A stretch of 62,931 nt of DNA, the filler included, from Asterionella formosa (Eukaryota), in NCBI GenBank assembly GCA_002256025.1. It is 27 parts of 27 records of this genome, joined end to end, with 100 filler letters (N's around TTAATTAATTAA, not from the genome) between each part and the next. Parts side by side here need not be neighbours in the genome. Positions count along the whole stretch, not along the records: positions 11,701 to 13,939 come from NKIB01000155.1; positions 14,040 to 16,281 come from NKIB01000156.1; 25 more parts are not named here. One strand, written 5' to 3'. The notes under the pieces are model-generated. The model saw only the letters and a list, made by a program, of their open reading frames with translations, was not told where the DNA came from and searched no databases. Shown piece by piece: positions 3,046 through 62,931 of the stretch (positions within the stretch are counted from its first letter, which is position 1; each line of letters begins with the position of its first letter). The translations under genes and the position numbers were made by a program.

Positions 3046-4729
3046 CAAAATTACATTTTCATCGAAACAAGCAAGCTTAAATACTGCATATGTCATGAAT
3101 CGAAATTTGGGCTAGAACATGTTGCTAGCTACGTAAATTAGCAAAAACATAATAATCTATAATATTCTTTTAAATAGCTTTAAAAAAAACAATTTTATAC
3201 GTACAGTCGAACAAACCATCATGGCATAATTATGCATCGTCCTCCGGCGATGTTGCGCCATAACTACTGCTGCAGCATACTATGGTTCCAACATTGTTGC
3301 GATAATTCATCCAACGTAAGTGTTCAATAAGGTTAGAGAAATATCCTTTTGGCTGACCATCATGCTTGTTGCATGGATGAAAGTCGGACTTCTGTGAGAA
3401 AGTCGTCAACTTGGCATGTGTGAGTTGTTGAAAGCGAATCGGCTGATTGCTGATTGATGTTGCCATCAATGATATACACTATCTCTCCTTCCACTTCCTT
3501 GAATCACAGAAAGTCAGCTGCATTTGAGATGCCTTGAGGAGAGCATTGTTGACTCATAAATTTCGAGTTGCGGAAGGGCGAAAAGGTGGTTGGTAAAGTC
3601 GATTGTATGCTCATTCTTTGCTTGAAAGAAGGATATATTGTGATGATTTGGGGGCGTTTGATAATAAAGTACATGTCCTAGGCTTAACACTTTGTCATTC
3701 ACAGAGGTAAACAAAACTTGCTTACTTTGCTTACTTTCCTTCTTTCCGGTCATTTTCATTTCCCTTTTTTAGCAATTCGCCCATGTTTTCACGTTCGGAA
3801 AAATAAAATTAGCATGAAACCTAAATTTTAAATCTCAAACAAGAAAATACTAGGCATTTGTATGAAAAAATAATGTAAAACTATTCACGTCTTAAGCCAA
3901 GACATATACAAACTTGTATCATAATTACTTAATTTTTTTGCTATCAAATGAATTTTCCCCATGATTGTAGTCAATTTTATTATTGCTCTTCTTTACTCAG
4001 ATTGGAGAGTATGAACAAAGTTGGAGCACAATTGAAACTCCAGGAACCTGTCTGGCTGGTCAACGCAAATTGTAACAATTTAATTAGCTACAATCTATAA
4101 AAATCTTGAATTTTTCCATCACTTTATTTATGAAAGAAGAGAGTATTCTACTGTGCAACGCACATCTTTTGAAATTCCTTAGAAACGAATTTTAATGTGC
4201 TGTGTCTTATAAAGTCCACCATTTTTGAATCTGACATTCGCAGAATTTTTTGAATGTGTTCTTTTGTTTGATGAGCAGTGACACGACACAGATTGCACTG
4301 ATTACCCAATCATGAGTGGCATCCTAGTTTATTTCAGAATTTTGGAATCTAATTGGTTGCTGTATGACGACTTGATAGTCCATATTTCTGGACTCATTGC
4401 CAAGGAGTCGATCTAACCAGTTTTTCACTCGTCCTGCTTTTGGGAATAGGAAGCAGCTTTTGACGTCTAGTTGTGTCGAAAATCGTTTCGCTTCAAAGGT
4501 TTGCTGATTTTGTGGAATCACAGGAGTCCCTGGCATCGCTTTCAATCTTTTCCACCATATTGCTTCCTCCCAGTAGTCCCGANNNNNNNNNNNNNNNNNN
4601 NNNNNNNNNNNNNNNNNNNNNNNNNNTTAATTAATTAANNNNNNNNNNNNNNNNNNNNNNNNNNNNNNNNNNNNNNNNNNNNTATCGGTAGATCAATTCA
4701 TAGCAAATGAGCCGGCTGCTCATTCTCAT

Positions 4730-13640: not shown

Positions 13641-15270
13641 TACAGTATACCAAATGCAGAAACGAGCGAGCAATATGAAAATGAAATGCGTTCTAATCAG
13701 AATCATTCTATAACTATAGCTATGTGGACAGTAGTCTGTTACGCACATTTTCGTATCTCTTTCTATGCTGAATCTCAATAGTAGATGTAGTATCATGTGA
13801 GAATTGAAAATGTCAACGAGAACAAGTAGAATGTGTTTGTTTACGGGTTGATTGGCGAGATTGTCATGCTGAAGTGGACGAAACGGATATACTTTGTGCG
13901 CAAAATCGGAAGTTGGTAGGGTTTATAATGTCGTTTATTNNNNNNNNNNNNNNNNNNNNNNNNNNNNNNNNNNNNNNNNNNNNTTAATTAATTAANNNNN
14001 NNNNNNNNNNNNNNNNNNNNNNNNNNNNNNNNNNNNNNNACAAAAGGCAAGGAATAAATGAAATAACAATCAACATCATACCAAGATAAGCGCCAGCAAA
14101 ACAACCTTGACAACGACCTCAATTCGTCGTTGAATCTTGAATTTTCTTTCATGAGAAGCTGTAATTAAGAAAGGAGTAAGAGGTGTGAGAAGTAGAAGAT
14201 CAGAAAGAGTCACAATCACATCAAACTGACCATGCAGAAGCAACCTTCATCGTGGCGGTTTCCTTGATTTTGGCATGATTTTATAATTTATGTGGCGCAA
14301 GTATGATCATGATGATTCTAGGGTACTGGTACCTGGTACCATGTACCAGGTACCAGGTACAAACAAGTCTATAATTAATTAATTTAATATGGGCGCGGTC
14401 AATTGTGCTCATTTCCTAATAAAATGTACCAGACTCCTCTAATAAAATGAACACACAAACGAAACTGGCGCAGTCTGCAGTCTTGTACGAGTGTACCATG
14501 AGGACCTCCGATTTTACCACCATTCAACAACCAGGTACCTGGTACCTGGTACCAGGCACATGATACCAGGATTAAAAAGGTACATGAGGAAGAAAGTAAG
14601 GCTGCTGGTACCTGGTACCTGGTACCTTGCCAGGTATAAGGTAGGAGTACCTGTTACCTGGTACCAGGTAATGGAGGGTAGCCCTCGCAATCGCTACAGT
14701 ACAAGGTAAATTATTGTTTAGCTGAGATACTGCGATTCTTTTGACTATACAAAATCCTACAGTGTAGTTGTTGGTGATCATCTGGAGCATCCTGCATCAT
14801 GTCGTCTCAACCTTGACCATGACGAAAATAGCGGAAATCTCTACGAAAATTGAGAACGACGCTCTCCTGTTAGGAACGTATATCAATCACAACAAAGGCA
14901 ATACAACCGTAAGAGAATAGTTGCAATGGCATTGATAGTGACAGCGAAAACTGCAATCGCCGATGGCACAATTTTTCTACATAATCTATAGCTGCTCAAA
15001 TCAAAACGACGCTGTTGCGAACAGATTTGACATTTTTGCAGTTGCTGAGCAATGAACGACTATAACAATAACATGATTAGTTGAAGCAAAAAATTGTTAA
15101 AATAGTTATTCATCAAATAAGAATGATTGATTGTACCAACGGCATTTGTGGATGCGGATATCGGCGCCAACAACTGCTTGTGCTGTTTGTTCTTTGGCAG
15201 TCGATATCAAGGGAAAATGTGATAGAGGAAAAAATAATAATTGAATCGAAATTAGGTACTCTTTACTTAA

Positions 15271-16281
15271 GGTTCCTGCATTTGAACCCCTAGGCAAAAA
15301 TTAAAATATTGCTTAGGGTTGCCGAAATTCCCTGGAACTAAGAATTTTTATGAGTTAATTTTGAATGACGTGATTCCAATTGAAATATTTGAATCACTGG
15401 AAATTTGCGCGTACATACATAGATTCCTTTTCGAATTCAATAAATATATACATAAACGTTCTCCATCGCTCAATGTTTATATACCCTATCATACAATCAA
15501 CATATATGTGTCAGACGAGCTGGCAGCATGGCAACTATTGTTGTTGACTAGCTACCGGTAAGAAACAAAAAAAGCAACAATCAACCATGAGCGAAATTAC
15601 ACATCAAAATGATGACAATGGTAATGACGAATTTAACTACAGTCATGATAGTTGTCCTACCTGCCAAGACCGGTTGATTGTAGAGTCGTATGTGGAGGGA
15701 TGTGAGGATCGCATCTTCTGCGAATGCTGCGATTTTTGCTGCCCTGAATGTCAGTGCCGATGGGATGAAGTCGAAGAGTTGGTGGAGAAGTTTCTGGAAG
15801 GTGAATCCATTCTTACCATGTTGAAGGATGAAGACATTACGGCATCAAGAGCCCGCAATCTTCTGTACAAGTTTCTAATCAGAGTTTTCAGTGGTCCATT
15901 GGGAAAAGGTGTTCGGATGCAACTTCCTGACTGTTGTTTGAAGGGGGTTCGATCTCTTTTGAAGAACAAGGACCCAAACGAAGTGTTCACTGGTTTCAAA
16001 CTAACTTCAAAAAGTTCTAAATCTTCTAAATCTATTAGTGATTAGTGTTTTTACGATTTTCATTTATTTCATTAGTAAATCAAGAACTTCAATCCACCTA
16101 CGTACGATGTTTCAAAACCTTCTAGAAATGAGGTGGCATGAATGATAAAAATATTTTTTATATTTACACAATCTAACGAATCAACCTGCCATAAAAACAG
16201 CAACACCAGCCAACTATTATAAGACAAAATCATGCCACGTTCCAGTGGTAGCCGTCTCATTTCCGAAATAGGTGTTGGTGG
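15271..16281 (+). mobile_element. Left part of a TTAA-flanked TIR DNA transposon (Kolobok-like), cut by contig end
   Basis: TTAA (15267-15270) followed by GGTTCCTGCATTTGAACCCCTAGG. The same end occurs at 19594, 35919 and inverted at 60826. It carries the KolX/ballast-like ORF, and a second ORF starts at 16232. Confidence 0.75.
15587..16045 (+). CDS. Cys-rich protein with a P2X7 cytoplasmic-ballast/KolX-like C-terminal domain
   Basis: N-terminal Cys cluster (CPTC, CECCDFCCPECQC). C-terminal RARNLLYKFLIRVFSGPLGKGVRMQLPDCCLKGVR...FTGFK fits the R..Y...G.LG.G.R..LP.C...R...Y/F.GFK pattern. Intact ORF. Confidence 0.75.
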   Translation: MSEITHQNDDNGNDEFNYSHDSCPTCQDRLIVESYVEGCEDRIFCECCDFCCPECQCRWDEVEELVEKFLEGESILTMLKDEDITASRARNLLYKFLIRVFSGPLGKGVRMQLPDCCLKGVRSLLKNKDPNEVFTGFKLTSKSSKSSKSISD

Positions 16282-18719: not shown

Positions 18720-18936
18720 CCTTTGCATCGTCCTTGTTAACATCGGGGTGTAACTCTCGGGCTTTGCGCTTGTACGCTTCCTTGATTTCAGTCGTCGTCG
18801 CCCCCCAAGTCAAGCCTAGTTGAGCGTATGGATCGTCGCGTTTCATTGTTTCTGTATTGGTGAAGTAGCTGCGAGAATTGTGCGAAAGGCGAAAAACGGG
18901 AATCCGCCCTTTGCGAAATGAAGATAGCATCATCAT
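18720..18936 (-). CDS. DnaJ/Hsp40 J-domain protein, N-terminal part, with a putative mitochondrial presequence
   Basis: DPYAQLGL...EIKEAYKRKARELHPDVN (HPD motif) after an Arg/Ser-rich leader with no acidic residues. Confidence 0.9.
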
Positions 18937-19593
18937 CTCTTGGATCGCAGTTATTCTTATCTGGCGATGAAATGATGATTAAGTCTATGGCTGCTGAAGA
19001 AAGGTAAGAGGTACCTGGTACCTGGAATACCTGGTAAAGGGCAGTCAAAGGGAGGCAAACGATAGTAGCAAAATACTGCAACAAAAGAAGTGAACAAACC
19101 TTGTCGTCGTGGCAGTTCCTGTGCTGGCAGATCGGATGCGACAAAAGGAAGGGCATGCTGAAAGAAAGTACCTGGTACTGACGTCAAGATAACGCAACGC
19201 TTTTCCAGGTTACTACCTTCGTATCTATTACTAGAGGATTGCGGAATATACGAAGATCCCGGAACAAATGGAAAGTTCAGAGTAACAACAAGCACATAGC
19301 CCTGGTACCACGTCACTAGGAAGCGTACGTATGCTCTGTACATGTACGGAATCAGTATCTTACAACATGTGAAAAGAGGTGAATTAACCATTGGAGATCC
19401 TTTCATTTCTCTATATTTATGTAGACTGTATCATAATTTTAATTTTTTCTTGACATTTTACCCTTTATTACATCTACAGCAGCAATTATTGGTACCAGGT
19501 ACAGCCACCAGAAAAAACGCTAGTGAAATATGATCACCCAAAAAAATTATTTGGGTGGCCCAATATTGTGAATTCTGCAACATACATAATGAA

Positions 19594-20640
19594 GGTTCCT
19601 GCATTTCATATTGCTTAGGGTTGCAAAAATTCCCTGGAACTAAGAACTTTTATGAGCTATTTTTAAATGACATGATTCCATTTGAAATATTCAAATCAGT
19701 GGAAATTTGTGCGTATGTAAATAGATTCCTTTGTGAATTCACTAAATATATAGATATAGATTGTACATCTCTCTATATATACTGGTATACACTCTATACA
19801 CTGATTGATAGTTTATGTACTATCATACAACCCGGCGGCTCTGCAAGTATTTGAAGAGCACTCTAGGAGTGGTACACATGTGGCATATGATAATCATCTA
19901 CCAATAGTACCCATAGTGGATATGGTACTGGTGTACTGGCAATCACCCAAGACATTTTTAAATGTGTATCCACTGTAGCAAGTGTGGGTTTGCACAACCT
20001 CACAACAAACTGGGCCAATCAAATATGGGTAAGTAATTGAAGTTGACCAATCAAAATATTTATAATGAAGCAGGCACTTACAATTGAATTTTTTGTACAG
20101 GAGATTTTAGAAATGAATATTTTAGCACAAGACTACCATTCTGATGATGACGTTTTCGGTGATTAGTGATTCTGATTCCAACATTTTGGAGTCTGTTGAA
20201 AAGGCTGATTTTGTCGATTTTTTGGAGGATGATATCTCAACAATGGCTGGGTTTGAAGAAGAGTCAAGTACAAAGGTAATCTTCATATAGCCCCAGAAGA
20301 TAACTTTTGACAGAAAAGTGCAGGAAGTAACTTTGTTTTTTACTAGGCCAAATAAACAAGTTGGCCCAGTAAAATCCACTATTTTCAGCACAGTTTAAAA
20401 ACCGAAGTTCCTTTCTGCAGTTTCTGGCCAGATCCTAAATACTGACATTGCATAGAGTTGACCTATACCCCTACTTTGATCAATGACTGTATCTTAGCAT
20501 ATGGAAAGGGTGTATATTGGTGAAAGCTCCGTTTGGCGGTATACATTTATGTTTTACTCATAAGAAGTGTGTGTTTGAGTACTCTGACTCAATGTTATTT
20601 TTTAACCCTACCTCTAATCTAGGGTTGAAATGCAGGAACC
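19594..20640 (+). mobile_element. Non-autonomous member (about 1.05 kb) of the TTAA/GG..CC TIR family, containing Crypton-derived sequence
   Basis: Left end ggttcctgcatttc; right end ctagggttgaaatgcaggaacc followed by TTAA (20641-20644); left flank TGAA. Internal 19960-20390 aligns with the Crypton leader at 51705-52130. Confidence 0.75.
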
Positions 20641-22028
20641 TTAAAGGGTATGACATCACATAAAAGTATGATGCATCACATAATATATATATATATGATA
20701 GGAGTGAACTAAGTTAGTTTTGACAGCTTCCATTTTTATTTTAGAAACCCACATAATTTTTGAGGCAAACTAACCATATTTATTGTATCCAATCAAATAA
20801 TTTTTTGATCAACGACAGCAATTATTATTCACAGCAATAATCATCTATAATTTTTATGAATGAACAAGGTACACTTAAAATTCTATTGAAATAATGATAT
20901 TGTTGTAATAGCTACCAGAATTATATTTACGTTGTATAACTAGCTACTACTACTATNNNNNNNNNNNNNNNNNNNNNNNNNNNNNNNNNNNNNNNNNNNN
21001 TTAATTAATTAANNNNNNNNNNNNNNNNNNNNNNNNNNNNNNNNNNNNNNNNNNNNCTGCTAACAGGGGTGTTTTGCTCCGCTTTTCCACAGTGCTTTTG
21101 ACCTAGAAATCCATCCACGTCGTGCCAAGAGTGAGACTTTTTATTCTACAGAAGGAAATCAAAGAGTTGTCTATCAATCATTGATTGAAGCTACTATCGT
21201 ATCGGAAAACAACAAAAATCGCCAATCAACAGGTTGAAAGCGTCCACTTTGTCCAACAATCCAACCAGTGCATTCATGGAACTTTCACCCAATAAAGCAT
21301 CCAACGCCATCATGTTATAAGAGCCGCAACAGGTAATGATATCTATGAAATCAAGAAAAGACTGCTTTCACAAAGCGCCCACTTCAAGCAACAACCAACA
21401 AGCTCACACATAAGGAGGACTGCAGTGGCTGCTTACCAGGCTCATCAAAAAACTTGGGGAAACTAACGAAAAAAGTGTTAGCTTTAACAACTAGCCTGGA
21501 AAACTGGAAAATGCTGACTACGGGCATTGTTGCATATGGTATGAATCATGTCACTACTAGGTATCTTGCATGTATGAATTTGGAAAGCTGCCATCCACAA
21601 AGCTTGGGACAACATGCAATAAACTCCCATGCACATGTGTGCATAACAAATGTATCCCTTTGGGGTCAGTATTGGTGTTGATAGGTACCACTCCAGCTAA
21701 TGTCATCTTGTCAAGCCGCAGAAACAACAAGCAATCCTTATGTTATTGGGACTTTGTGATAATGAAAACTGATGATGAGAATGGCAGGTAACTGATGCTC
21801 TATTATAACAAGGAGAACCAATATTAAACTAAGTGCATTAATAGAAAAGCATTGATAATGTTCTAGTATACCGCTGAAATGTAATGAAGTTTCCAAATGT
21901 CCAAGGTGGCCCATTCTAGTGCAGGGGTCTATTGCAGTAATCTTTTATTGAGTGATCAGGTGTTCCTTTGCTCAAAATGCCAACCTTTTAAGGTGCAATC
22001 ATATGTTATATTTTTTCTTTTTTGAAAC

Positions 22029-35918: not shown

Positions 35919-36986
35919 GATTCCTGTATTTCAACCCAAAGACAAAAATTAAAATATTACTTAGGGTTGCCAAATTTCCCTGGAACTAAGAACGTATATG
36001 AGCTATTTTTAAATGACATGATCCCATTTGAAATATTCAAATCAGTGGAAATTTGTGCGCATGTGCATAGATTCCTTTTTGAATTCACTATATATATAGA
36101 TATAGATTGTACATAACTCTATATATACTGGTATACACTCTATACACTGATTGATAGTTTATGTACTATCATACAACCTGGCGGCTCTGCAAGTATTTGA
36201 AAAGCACTCTAGGAGTGGTACACTTGTGGCATATGATAATCATCTACCAATAGTACCCATAGTGGATATGGTACTGGTGTACTGGCAATCACCCAAGACA
36301 TTTTTAAATGTGTATCCACTGTAGCAAGTGTGGGTTTGCACAACCTCACAACAAACCGGGCCAATCAAATATGGGTAAGTAATTGAAGTTGACCAATCAA
36401 AAAATTTATAATGAAGCAGGCACTTACAATTGAATTTTTTGTACAGGAGATTTTAGAAATGAATATTTTAGCACAAGACTACCATTCTGATGATGACGTT
36501 TTCGGTGACTAGTGATTCTGATTCCAACATTTTGGAGTCTGTTGAAAAGGCTGATTTTGTCGATTTTTCGGAGGATGATATCTCAACAATGGCTGGGTTT
36601 GAAGAAGAGTCAAGTACAAAGGTAATCTTCAAATAGCCCCAGAAGATAACTTTCGACAGGTAAGTGCAGGAAGTAACTTTGTTTTTTACTAGGCCAAATA
36701 AACAAGTTGGCCCAGTAAAATCCAGTATTTTCAGCATAGTTTAAAAACCGAAGTTCCTTTCTGCAGTTTCTGGCCAGATCCTATATACTGGCATTGCATA
36801 GAGTTGACCTATACCCCTACTTTGATCAATGACTGTATCTTAGCATATGGAAAGGGTGTATATTGGTGAAAGCTCCGTTTGGCAGTATACATTTATGTTT
36901 TACTCATAAGAAGTGTGTGTTTGAGTATTCTGACTCAATATTATTTTTTAACCCTACCTCTAATCTAGGGTTGCAATGTGGGAACC
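35919..36986 (+). mobile_element. Allelic copy of the non-autonomous TTAA TIR element
   Basis: Ends gattcctgtatttcaaccc ... gggttgcaatgtgggaacc followed by TTAA. Confidence 0.75.
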
Positions 36987-37399
36987 TTAAAGGGTATGAC
37001 ATCACATAAAAAGTATGATGCATCACATAATATATACATGATAGGAGTGAACTAAATTAGTTTTGACAGCTTCCATTTTTATTTTAGAAACCCACATAAT
37101 TTTTGAGGCAAACTAACCATATTTTTTGTATCCAATCAAATAATTTCTTGATCAACGACAGCAATTATTATCCACAGCAATAATCATCTATAATTTTTAT
37201 GAATGAACAAGGTACACTTAAAATTCTATTGAAATAATGATATTGTTGTAATAGCTACCAGAATTATATTTACGTTGTATAACTAGCTACTACTACTATN
37301 NNNNNNNNNNNNNNNNNNNNNNNNNNNNNNNNNNNNNNNNNNNTTAATTAATTAANNNNNNNNNNNNNNNNNNNNNNNNNNNNNNNNNNNNNNNNNNNN

Positions 37400-51556: not shown

Positions 51557-52164
51557 TCGGTTTTTGGGAAATCCTAAATGCTGTCAACCACCCATCTACA
51601 GTGACGTAGGATGACAAAACCATTATAAAAAAAGTAAAATATTTCTAGACTCCGTACGGATACCGGTATACGGGTAGGATCGGCCAAAACCCAAGAAAAT
51701 GCTTCATGTGCATCCAGTGTGGCCGGCGTGGGATTGCAAGACCTCGCAAACCGTGCCAATCGAACGGATATAAGGATAGCCAATCAGAATATGAATAATA
51801 CAGCGGGCAATTACAATGGAACTTTTTGTACACGAGAATTTACGACTAAAAATTTTAGTACAAGACTACCATTCCGATGATGACGTTTCGGCGATTAGTG
51901 ATTCTGATTCTGATTCTGACATTTTGGTGACCGTTGAAAAGGCCGATATTTTCGAACATTTGGAAGACGATAGCTCAGCGTTGGCAGGGTTTGAAGAAGA
52001 GTTAAATACATAGGTAATCTTCATATAGCCCCAGAAGTTAACTTTCTGCGAGAAACTGCAGAAAGGAACTTCGGTTTTTTTACGAGGCCAAATAAACGAG
52101 TTGGCCCGGTAAAATCCAGTATTTTCAGCATTGGCTATGATGACCTACAAAGATAGGATAGAAT

Positions 52165-60702: not shown

Positions 60703-60826
60703 GATTCAAATATTTCAAATGGAATCACGTCATTCAAAAATAGCTAATTAAATTCTTAATTCCAGGGAATTTTCGCAACCCTAAGCAATATTTTAATTTT
60801 TGCCTAGGGGTTCAAATGCAGCAACC
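60703..60826 (-). mobile_element. End of the TTAA TIR element, inserted in a Copia integrase
   Basis: Reverse complement of about 15271-15396, followed by TTAA (60827-60830), after which the integrase frame KKKNLLSKIVDE...LRCDNAGEN resumes. Confidence 0.85.
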
Positions 60827-62931
60827 TTAAGAAGAAGAATTTACTATCCAAAATTGTGGACGAGCTACTTATCAAGCTATTTGCAGCAAAATATGTCATC
60901 AAGTATCTACGATGTGATAATGCAGGTGAAAATCTCGAAAATTTGTCATCTGTATGCACCAAGCATGGTATTCAGATTGAATACACAGCACCAAATACAC
61001 CTCAGCAGAACGGTGTTGTTGAGCGCAAGTTTGTCAAGTGATGAGTTTCAAGGACTTCTTTGGGCAGAATGTGCCAACACAATGACTCGAGTGACAAATG
61101 TGGTTTCGAATTCAAGAAATATCAAGTGCCCTGATTGGCTATGGTATGGGAAACAACCTACAATCTATGAACACTTGATTCAATTTGGACGAATTGGATA
61201 TGTCACCATAAGAGCTCCTGTGAATAAGCTTGATGATAAAGCAATTAAATGTGTCATGATTGGATACTCTGAAAACCACTCAGGTGATACCTACCGACTC
61301 TTTAACCCTATAACCAAGAAGGTGATTCAGAGCCGTGATGTAAAATGGATTGAATGGCATGGAGAAACGAAACCTAATAATGATCTGACCATGTTCAAGA
61401 CTGGGATTGATGAAATTGAGTTTGAGGAGGAACTTGACCAACCTGCTGCACCAACTCCGACTGTCATCCCAGATGATGAGACTGGATCACTTTCGACTCT
61501 TAATGACTTGCAGGTCTCTGAAGCAGGGAGGAATGAAGCTTCAAATACTTCAAAACCTGCTATTACGAGAGCTGAACGAGAGCTCAAGAAACTTGGTCAT
61601 GAAACTGCTCCAACGATGTCTACACTACATTCTGGAAGATTGCATAATGTAGATGATGAGGATGATCTGGATTCTAAGCCTACTTCATCCATGGAGGTTC
61701 ATTACATCTATAGCTCTACACTTGCATCAGATCCAGGTGAACCCAAGACCTACAGTGCGGCACTGAAAGCAGATGACAGAGAAAAATGGATTCCAGCAAT
61801 CAAAAGTGAAATTGATAATTGTATAAAACGAAAAGTCTGGTCAAAATTCCCAAGATCAGAATTGCATGGACGCAAGCCGCTTGGGAGTCGATGGGTCTTC
61901 AAGAAAAAGAAGGAACAAGACTTGACTACACGCTATAAGGCACGTGTGGTCGTCAAGGGATAGTATGTTCAAATCCCCGGTGTTGATTTTACCGACTCGT
62001 TTGCACCTGTGGCTACGGATACAAGTATCAGAGTTGTCTTTGCAATCACCATGCACAAGAAGACATGGACTTTGGAGGTCATTGACGTCGAAGCATCCTT
62101 TCTTGAAGGAGACTTAGAGGAAGACATCTACCTTGAATGGCCTGAAGGCGTTGTTGAGTTTGGCTTTGAAGACAACAAGGTTGTCTCAGAAAATTGTATT
62201 CTTCTAAGTAAAGCCATGTATGGAACGGTGCAGGCTGCGCGACAGTGGTACAAGAAACTTGTGGAGCGTCTGATTCTCATTGGAATGAAACAGAGCAAAG
62301 TGGATCCATGCATTTTCTTCTTGAAACGTGATTTGAAATTGGTTCTAATTGTTTGTATCTATGTTGATGACTGCATTGTTGCAGGAGAACAAGCCGATGT
62401 TGACTGGCTTAAGGCTGAAGCCAAGAAGCATTTCACCATAAAGGAACTCGGACCAATCAAGAAACATTTAGGAGTTTGGTATGACTGGGGAGAGGATGCT
62501 GATGGAAGATTTCTTGAATCTACTATGGAGGATTTCGTTGAAGGAATGTTTGAAGACTATAAGAATCTCTTTGGACGTTATCCCGCAATTGCACCAACTC
62601 CCGGATTGCCAGGTACAAGTTTGTCCAAGAATGTTGCCCACACTGTTCTACATAGTGAATACAGATCCATGGTTGGAAAAATCTTATACTTTGTAAAGAA
62701 GATATCTCCAATTTGTGCCAATGCATGTCGAGAATTGTCTCAGCATCTGGAGAATCCAGGAGAGGCTCATTGGAAGGCAGTTGAACGTCTGTTGGGATTC
62801 TTATATGCAGACAAGAAACATCGGCGTATGAAGATGCGAACCCCTAAAGAAATGCGCCCAATGGATGTTGTTGACAGTGCATTTGCAATTAACCCTGATA
62901 CTCGCAAAAGTACAAGTGCATATCTCGGAAC
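60827..62931 (+). mobile_element. Inactivated Ty1/Copia pol (integrase, RT, start of RNase H)
   Basis: RCDNAGEN, TPQQNGVVER, KLDDKAIKC, YKARVVVKG*YVQIPG, IYVDD, VDSAFA. Deletion or frameshift at about 61040 and an in-frame TAG at 61961. Confidence 0.93.

What the first reader, a model, noticed from the sequence alone, without database searches (positions are those of the whole stretch)
15267..16281. TTAA-targeting DNA transposon encoding a P2X7-ballast/KolX-like Cys-rich protein
Seen: TTAA plus the terminus GGTTCCTGCATTT(G/C)AACCC recurs on four contigs, and the matching inverted right end plus TTAA is at 20640 and 36986. About 316 bp inside the copy here is an intact 152-aa ORF with a Cys cluster and a ...YKFLIRVFSGPLGKGVRMQLPDCC...FTGFK tail. 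Known (from memory): a TTAA TSD with RR..YY termini and an accessory KolX protein characterise Kolobok, and KolX resembles the Zn/GDP-binding ballast domain of vertebrate P2X7. A second ORF starts on the same strand at 16232 (MPRSSGSRLISEIGVG, cut by the contig end). My unverified impression is that it resembles N-termini of diatom piggyBac-like transposases. If so, this would be an unusual TTAA element pairing KolX with a non-Kolobok transposase. Otherwise it is a diatom Kolobok lineage.
Basis: partly seen in the sequence, partly recalled or inferred. Interest (0 to 1): 0.72.

Follow-up and report, generated by a model that had tools for sequence, protein, structure and literature searches.

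The report
Diatom Kolobok transposon with ballast-like gene
This is the left end of a young cut-and-paste jumping gene of a diatom that inserts at TTAA and belongs to the known Kolobok group; its small zinc-type helper gene is a shortened relative of the tail of the animal P2X7 receptor, carried here by a Kolobok branch not previously described as having such a gene.

Summary
Window 15267-16281 is the left kilobase of a ~3.94-kb diatom DNA transposon with 23-bp TIRs. TTAA borders 80 of 102 termini. Empty copies of the host repeat carry one TTAA, and the matching right junction is on another contig. The ORF at 16232 begins a 791-aa transposase, intact in two metagenome contigs: PF20700, with Kolobok D-D-DxxH-E motifs and no piggyBac domain. 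The 152-aa ORF has no direct hit. A two-step profile ranks P2X7 first in PDB (E 1.5e-5), and its model ranks the P2X7 ballast first of 48,161 chains, weakly (Z 5.3). It is under purifying selection between subfamilies (dN/dS 0.21-0.30). What is new is modest. Published KolX is tied to Kol0, but this transposase has the CCHC finger that Kol0 lacks. The ORF is the short, four-cysteine form that was published only from two piggyBac families. Repbase's diatom Kolobok may already hold such an ORF (not visible to me). The scan noted dead copies of this family elsewhere in this genome. The helper's function is inferred, not shown.

The parts
14040..15266 (.). Host repeat into which the element inserted (non-coding, multicopy, unclassified)
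   Evidence: 94-99% identical copies elsewhere in G000 continue past a single TTAA without the element
15267..15270 (+). TTAA target-site duplication, left copy
   Evidence: Five empty copies (L190-L193, L195) read a single TTAA here; L039 joins the element's right end + TTAA to the host repeat's downstream sequence
15271..15293 (+). Left TIR, 23 bp, starts GG
   Evidence: Majority letters of 52 left and 50 right termini agree for 23 positions, then diverge
15294..15586 (+). Left subterminal / 5' region; the first ~200 bp are kept in non-autonomous derivatives
15587..16045 (+). ORF1, 152 aa, short KolX / P2X7-ballast-like Cys-rich accessory protein (core C45, C48, C57, R90, Y94, G103-R110, P114, C116, R122, G136-F137)
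   Evidence: purifying selection
16046..16231 (+). 186-bp AT-rich spacer between the two genes
   Evidence: Same length in the intact copy L183
16232..16281 (+). First 16 codons of the 791-aa Kolobok-type DDE transposase; cut by the contig end
   Evidence: Identical start in intact L182 and L183; PF20700 E 3.8e-43
19594..20644 (+). Non-autonomous derivative (~1.05 kb): decayed left end, intact right TIR ending 20640, TTAA 20641-20644
35919..36990 (+). Second version of the same non-autonomous insertion; right end 36986, TTAA 36987-36990
   Evidence: Contig 93.7% identical to 18720-20956
51689..52130 (+). Old internal fragment of the right-hand non-coding region (78%)
60703..60830 (-). Another left end with TTAA, cut by the contig start
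   Evidence: 92% to the 15267 end

Best explanation
A young, two-gene Kolobok-superfamily DNA transposon of a diatom. Layout: TTAA | 23-bp TIR | ORF1 (152 aa) | 186 bp | transposase (791 aa) | ~600 bp | TIR | TTAA, about 3.94 kb, both genes on one strand. SHOWN: insertion at TTAA with duplication, the two-gene layout, Kolobok-type catalytic motifs (D308; D403/D405; D455-x-x-H458; E582; a CCHC finger C347/C350/H363/C365; an H/C finger at 517-530), spread with ~1-kb non-autonomous derivatives, and selection on ORF1. FROM ESTABLISHED KNOWLEDGE of DDE transposases (recalled): the enzyme binds the TIRs, cuts the element out and joins it into a TTAA site; derivatives are moved in trans. INFERRED: ORF1 is a small zinc-stabilised accessory factor with the helical core of the P2X7 ballast. 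Four conserved cysteines (C45, C48, C57, C116) would hold one zinc; this subfamily's extra C23/C26 and C52/C55 pairs may hold a second. The invariant R90, near-invariant Y94 and the Gly-rich basic loop G103-R110 would form a phosphate-binding face (guanine nucleotide or DNA backbone). Through it ORF1 would raise or time transposition by its own element, probably by acting on the transposase-DNA complex. Odds: Kolobok identity ~0.95; ballast homology ~0.9; 'helper of its own element's transposition' ~0.6; guanine-nucleotide binding ~0.25.
For: TSD and ends. Intact two-gene copies L182, L183. Transposase: PF20700 E 2e-39 and 3.8e-43; motif positions match by eye the Kolobok alignment in Data S5 of PMC9587614, including the long insertion before DxxH that Kolobok_1_FraCyl also has. 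ORF1: profile A3 gives P2X7 as the top 4 of 5 PDB rows at E<=10 (E 1.5e-5 to 5e-3, residues 537-594); 34 of 50 A3 members match PF20478 at E<=0.5, best 2.8e-9; HHalign 98.2% to an acorn-worm ballast-type protein over 61 columns; VIA-align rank 1 of 48,161, the only Z>=5. Selection: dN/dS 0.21-0.30 against three subfamily copies (Fisher p 1e-8 to 3e-5), and pS 0.73-0.95 against pN 0.20-0.24 for five distant copies. Linkage: a ballast-like hit lies on the same strand, 5' of the catalytic core, in 12 of 16 divergent PF20700 loci, or 8 of 12 after dropping four loci picked because they already had an ORF1 hit. R546 and R578 are the GDP-site residues kept in invertebrate ballast proteins (PMC7016195); they map to R90 and R122. 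Precedent for a transposase-accessory pair: MURA-MURB (PMC12973397).
Against: The window protein itself has no Pfam hit and no PDB hit below E 0.5, nor has the close-family profile. The link needs a second profile step through proteins of 21-36% identity found at E 1e-6 to 1e-3. Foldseek gives no match at E<=0.001; the best P2X7 row is rank 3, E 3.6. Z 5.3 (rmsd 4.3, 88 aligned) is below the tool's caution level of 8 and less than 1 above rank 2, so formally tied. The sequence match covers only the C-terminal half of the ballast. H547, R574, K583 and the F581-P582 motif have no counterpart in ORF1 (N91, L118, N127, L125-K126). Nothing here measures ORF1's activity. The lineage call rests on motifs read by eye, not on a tree.
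Confidence: 0.85

Rival explanations
1. One reading: a KolX-like gene paired with a piggyBac-type transposase in a TTAA element.
For: TTAA is shared by both superfamilies. Two piggyBac families do carry KolX-like genes of the same short form (Data S6 of PMC9587614). This genome has piggyBac loci (25 matches).
Against: The ORF at 16232 continues into a PF20700 transposase in every longer copy examined. No DDE_Tnp_1_7 hit. Ends are GG..CC, the Kolobok RR..YY type. 0 of 25 piggyBac loci (18 contigs, ~1.5-kb flanks) hold a ballast-like ORF (best E 0.2).
Confidence: 0.01
2. The element is an ordinary member of Kol0, or simply the catalogued diatom Kolobok architecture (Kolobok-1_FraCyl type), so nothing about the layout is new.
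For: Kolobok is already listed from a diatom. The FraCyl transposase is labelled '_2p' in Data S5, which implies a first protein in that family, and it shares the insertion before DxxH.
Against: Kol0-type rows (Kolobok_1_XT and similar) have no CCHC finger and a D-x3-D-x-P-G first motif, while this enzyme has the finger and a D-M-G-W motif. The paper names KolX only for Kol0 and two piggyBac families; the FraCyl first protein is not in its supplements (1 occurrence of the name).
Confidence: 0.3
3. ORF1 works on the host rather than on the transposase: an anti-silencing or chromatin factor that keeps the element expressed.
For: Purifying selection fits any element-level benefit. Anti-silencing accessory proteins are known in VANDAL elements (PMC12973397).
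Against: No chromatin-factor domain in Pfam for any notable share of 50 homologs. No data on silencing here.
Confidence: 0.25
4. ORF1 is the TTAA target-recognition factor, which would explain why ballast-like genes occur in both TTAA-targeting superfamilies.
For: Occurrence in Kolobok and in two piggyBac families; basic Gly-rich loop conserved.
Against: The paper gives TTAA for the whole Kolobok superfamily, though several lineages have other or no accessory genes. Most piggyBacs target TTAA with the transposase alone (recalled).
Confidence: 0.1
5. ORF1 is captured cargo or a chance ORF with no role.
For: 15 of the 30 closest copies have a stop or frameshift in ORF1, and dN/dS among close copies is around 1.
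Against: That is the expected decay of dead copies. Between subfamilies the synonymous sites approach saturation while the protein is kept, and the position upstream of the transposase is kept.
Confidence: 0.03

Closest known systems
Kolobok superfamily; nearest named row by motif Kolobok-1_FraCyl (diatom), also Kolobok_1_ADi, Kolobok_9_CGi and KolobokE-type CCHC-bearing transposases (PMC9587614, Data S5)
   Same: TTAA TSD, RR..YY short TIRs, D-D-(C/DxxH)-E transposase with both zinc fingers; long insertion between the second D and DxxH as in the FraCyl row.
   Different: Only moderately similar to the FraCyl row by eye (a different family). The paper describes no accessory gene for these rows except the nuclease or helicase types; here the accessory is ballast-like.
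Kol0 lineage with KolX (type Kolobok-1_XT)
   Same: Two genes: DDE transposase plus a ballast-fold protein; TTAA.
   Different: Kol0 transposases lack the CCHC finger and are reported from animals. KolX there matches P2X7 476-595, the region with seven cysteines; here only the C-terminal half aligns in sequence and four cysteines are family-conserved. Gene orientation in Kol0 was not stated in the passages I saw.
KolX-like proteins of piggyBac-2_GrCh and piggyBac-14_PI (Data S6 of PMC9587614)
   Same: By eye the same short form: C-x2-C ... C-x-W, one long helix, R-x3-Y, G-x-L-G/S-K-x2-R, P-x-C.
   Different: Carried by piggyBac there and by a Kolobok here. ORF1 has extra C-x2-C pairs (8 of 41 distant homologs share the inner pair).
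Cytoplasmic ballast of P2X7 (PDB 6u9v, 9e3m; Pfam PF20478) and metazoan ZCD / Nanor proteins (PMC7016195)
   Same: R546, Y550, G559, P570, C572, R578 and the terminal G-F map to R90, Y94, G103, P114, C116, R122, G136-F137.
   Different: Different cysteine spacing in the N-terminal cluster; H547, R574, K583 and F581-P582 not kept; the G-x-L-G-K-G-x-R loop is absent from P2X7 itself; free-standing, not fused to a channel.
MuDR / MULE (Pfam calls PF20700 'Mutator-like')
   Same: DDE clan with C/DxxH; transposase plus accessory gene (MURA/MURB).
   Different: 4-bp fixed TTAA and 23-bp TIRs here, against ~9-bp variable TSDs and long TIRs (recalled); zinc finger between the second D and E, absent in MuDR.

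Membership tests
Kolobok superfamily | TTAA-specific 4-bp TSD | tested here: met
   80 of 102 termini exact, 95 of 102 within one mismatch; empty versus filled site
Kolobok superfamily | Termini 5'-RR ... YY-3' with short TIRs | tested here: met
   GG at 86 of 102 termini; 23-bp TIR
Kolobok superfamily | [quoted passage not shown] | tested here: met
   D308, D403/D405, D455-x-x-H458, E582 in P0045, compared by eye with Data S5
Kolobok superfamily | Zinc finger between DxxH and the catalytic E | tested here: met
   H517, H522, C525, C530 (definition)
Kolobok superfamily | Placement in a tree of reference Kolobok transposases | not testable with these tools
   Reference sequences were available only as text in a supplement, not as stored sequences
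Kol0 lineage | Accessory protein with the ballast fold (KolX) | tested here: met
   C-terminal half only by sequence
Kol0 lineage | Transposase without the CCHC finger after the first D | tested here: not met
   C347, C350, H363, C365 present; C347, C350 and H363 invariant in 8 of 8 rows of A6; the paper limits this finger to KolobokP, E, D, 5 and solitary families
Kol0 lineage | Full seven-cysteine, two-zinc ballast motif | tested here: inconclusive
   Four Cys conserved in 34, 34, 36 and 41 of 41 distant homologs; only C116=C572 maps by sequence; the structure match spans 475-595 at low Z; Figure S6 is an image I could not see
piggyBac | DDE_Tnp_1_7 (PF13843) transposase | tested here: not met
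   No hit at E<=1 for the intact 791-aa protein; no match to 25 own-genome piggyBac loci
piggyBac | Termini unlike Kolobok's RR..YY | tested here: not met
   GG..CC
KolobokP / E / D / H | LTDRs with His-Me nuclease; lambda-exonuclease; DEDDh; RecQ | tested here: not met
   No long direct repeats in L183; Pfam shows only PF20700 on the transposase; only two genes besides overlapping-frame ORFs
MuDR / MULE | Long TIRs and ~9-bp variable TSD (recalled) | tested here: not met
P2X7 ballast | GDP site R546, H547, R574, R578, K583 | tested here: inconclusive
   2 of 5 kept (R90, R122), the same two kept in invertebrate ballast proteins
P2X7 ballast | Measured zinc and GDP binding | not testable with these tools
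   Needs purified protein

The most novel reading that the evidence does not exclude
Diatoms carry an undescribed Kolobok lineage, outside Kol0, whose accessory gene is a minimal one-zinc ballast module. That module is widespread in environmental eukaryote data and has moved between Kolobok lineages and piggyBac. It would predate the animal KolX/P2X7 form and act as a guanine-nucleotide or phosphate sensor that ties transposition to the host's metabolic state, which would make it the simplest model for what the P2X7 ballast originally did.
Probability: 0.15. Interest if true: 0.7.

Novelty: new variant of a known kind. Interest (0 to 1): 0.36.

Why it matters
The function of KolX, and the reason P2X7 carries a zinc/GDP-binding tail taken from a transposon, are open questions. 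Intact, near-identical two-gene copies exist (L182, L183; a cluster of 159 transposase sequences), and the family looks recently active: the right end at this site is 100% identical over 853 bp to an intact copy. A small 152-aa ballast relative beside its own transposase in an alga is a convenient system in which to test the helper's role. It also widens KolX from animal Kol0 elements to a second Kolobok branch. It is not a new superfamily, and the headline claim of a piggyBac chimera is wrong.

Tried and rejected
Direct Pfam and PDB searches with ORF1 and with the close profile A2: nothing significant. ESM Atlas: best score 0.81, unnamed clusters, no lead. PF20478 against the own genome: 0 candidates, but the control rang nowhere, so it is uninformative. 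Foldseek: no E<=0.001. Viral contigs with the transposase and with A2: no relatives. The neighbourhoods of distant short ballast-like proteins could not be fetched, because their alignments had no stretch conserved enough to scan; which transposases they travel with stays open. The metagenome scan with transposase alignment A6 gave 4 loci from 76 pattern matches: two intact, one partial, one fragment. Predicted complex of ORF1 with the transposase and zinc: no verdict (score 0.21, mark 0.34, alignments not used); it is not used as evidence. The transposase model had mean pLDDT 50, so it was not fold-searched; the PDB sequence search with it was empty. Expression: 18 runs hold part of the stretch, 13 on record as RNA, mostly freshwater and estuary metatranscriptomes. 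In the three RNA runs laid, contigs also cover the TIRs and run into flanks, so transcription of either gene or a joint transcript is not shown. Earlier-findings look-ups by sequence and by relatives were empty. Literature: 'Kolobok'+'KolX' 1 paper; 'Kolobok'+'diatom'+'transposon' 4 held, 3 listed (17); 'PF20700' 0 (89); 'ballast domain'+'transposon' 1 (90). In what I read of these, no ballast-like gene is described in a non-Kol0 or diatom Kolobok. Repbase Reports and subscription journals are not covered.

Full report
Observation. The window is a string of unrelated ~2.2-kb contigs; the finding lies on G000:C156. TTAA (15267), the GG terminus (15271), the 152-aa ORF (15587-16045) and the ATG at 16232 are as described. 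Of the four left ends in the window, two have an exact TTAA. The two right ends quoted belong to one ~1.05-kb non-coding derivative seen on two near-identical contigs. The host is a diatom by its silicon-transporter genes (7 matches, best E 1e-171).

The element. The stretch has at least 40 matches in the genome at 82-100% (40 of 707 candidates scored). Stretches cut around them gave complete copies of 2.4-4.0 kb and derivatives of 0.9-1.2 kb. From all own-genome loci then held I took termini with a pattern that left out TTAA and the first three bases: 112 flanks, 105 after merging near-identical ones, 3 dropped as unclassifiable. Of the 102 left, 80 have TTAA, 95 are within one mismatch, and 86 start GG; left and right ends agree for 23 bases. 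This copy sits in a multicopy host repeat. Of the eight other repeat loci returned, five read through a single TTAA with no element, one ends just after the TTAA, one has a variant site and one did not show the anchor. L039 carries the element's right end, TTAA, and the host repeat's downstream sequence (99.7% to L190); its 853 element bases are 100% identical to an intact copy. That is direct evidence of a TTAA duplication and of a young insertion. That C156 and C13985 are two ends of one copy is inferred.

The transposase. Longer copies continue from 16232 into a PF20700 protein. A 791-aa intact form (P0045, cluster of 159) is encoded by metagenome contigs L182 and L183, each with an intact 152-aa ORF1 186 bp upstream and the same 16 first residues as the window. 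L183 spans both ends, about 3.94 kb. Pfam finds no piggyBac domain, and neither the N-terminus nor the whole protein matches 25 piggyBac loci of this genome. The motifs are D308, a CCHC finger (347-365), D403/D405, D455-x-x-H458, an H/C finger (517-530) and E582. They match the Kolobok description and alignment in PMC9587614. Of that paper I saw the abstract, passages, section 10, and parts 104-106 of supplement 3; Figures 4 and S6 are images and were not seen, and part 103 only as a snippet. No intact transposase is assembled in G000 (0 of 8 copies), but stop-free pieces at 98-100% identity on short contigs cover residues 38-308, 312-571, 457-752 and 498-791, as expected when young copies collapse in an assembly.

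ORF1. Alone it hits nothing. A profile of 19 close relatives found 83 representatives at E<=0.001. I aligned 41 of the distant, full-core ones with 9 close ones (A3), leaving out fragments and frameshifted copies. A3 returns P2X7 as the first four of five PDB rows (E 1.5e-5 to 5e-3; residues 537-594), 34 of its 50 members match PF20478 at E<=0.5, and it aligns to an acorn-worm ballast-type protein at 98.2%. The model (pLDDT 70, core above 85) ranks rat P2X7 475-595 first of 48,161 chains at Z 5.3, rmsd 4.3, 88 aligned. That score alone is weak and Foldseek is not significant, but it points to the same domain as the sequence result; the model was built from A3, so the two are not fully independent. 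C45, C48, C57 and C116 are kept in 34, 34, 36 and 41 of 41 distant homologs; R90, G103 and R110 in 41 of 41; Y94 in 40. R90 and R122 correspond to R546 and R578, the only GDP-site residues kept outside deuterostomes (PMC7016195, passages). McCarthy 2019 was not read.

Is ORF1 functional? Among the 30 closest copies, 12 are whole and open, 3 are partial and open, and 15 are broken, with dN/dS scattered around 1. Between subfamilies dN/dS is 0.21-0.30, and the most distant copies have pS 0.73-0.95 against pN 0.20-0.24; the transposase gives 0.10-0.41 (columns in windows under 35% identity were dropped, which lowers dN somewhat). A ballast-like hit lies 5' of the catalytic core on the same strand in 12 of 16 divergent PF20700 loci; four of these were chosen with an ORF1 hit already known, and the rest give 8 of 12. 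The gene pair is therefore old and maintained in active elements.

Mechanism. Cut-and-paste by the DDE enzyme into TTAA follows from the anatomy and from what is known of the clan. For ORF1 I favour a zinc-stabilised helper that acts for its own element through a basic, Gly-rich phosphate-binding face (about 0.6), over an anti-silencing role (0.25) or TTAA recognition (0.1). MURA-MURB is a precedent for transposase-accessory pairs (PMC12973397, passages). None of this is measured.

Comparison. It is a Kolobok on every feature I could test. It is not Kol0, because it has the CCHC finger that the paper restricts to other lineages, though it works like Kol0 in carrying a ballast-fold gene. That gene resembles, by eye, the short KolX-like proteins the paper lists from two piggyBac families more than the seven-cysteine animal form. 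The Xenopus Kolobok paper confirms TTAA and RR ends (PMC6004289, passages). My searches found no description of this pairing, but the diatom family in Data S5 is labelled as protein 2, so a first ORF probably exists in Repbase, which I could not see. Two earlier notes of this scan on dead copies in the same genome reached a similar reading; I saw them after forming mine, and they are not independent evidence.

Verdict. Real, a Kolobok, not a piggyBac chimera. A new variant of a known kind, interest 0.36.

Noticed in passing
window 14040-15266; L190-L196: The target is itself a multicopy non-coding repeat of at least 1.5 kb, with 94-99% identical copies and a sharp right boundary about 300 bp past the TTAA; unclassified.
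   Followed up: partly
window 23534, 41134 (-), 44690, 58261: A recurring repeat with a tRNA T-loop-like stretch followed by a shared tail; it may be a tRNA-derived SINE-like element. It matched the TIR pattern only by chance.
   Followed up: no
L183:4418-4614: A 79-bp imperfect inverted repeat (77%, 39-bp spacer) in the right non-coding region, kept in many copies and derivatives; a possible hairpin or subterminal binding site.
   Followed up: no
L181:777-780, L050:973-977, L073, L080: Copies sit end to end at one TTAA, or close to other copies, which suggests reinsertion into the TTAA left beside an earlier copy.
   Followed up: no
P0073, P0075, P0077, P0079, P0085, P0090, P0102, P0103: 8 of 41 distant homologs share ORF1's longer cysteine cluster (an extra C-x2-C pair), a sub-type of the short ballast family; their genomic context is unknown.
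   Followed up: partly
P0045 residues 712-728 and 85-163: The transposase has a C-terminal C-x2-C ... H ... C knuckle and N-terminal C-x2-C pairs that the paper's core alignment does not cover.
   Followed up: no
L065:3749-4549 (runs X4, X6): High-depth RNA contigs join across internal deletions and one ends in a run of A near 4549; they may come from deleted copies or processed transcripts, which contigs cannot tell apart.
   Followed up: no
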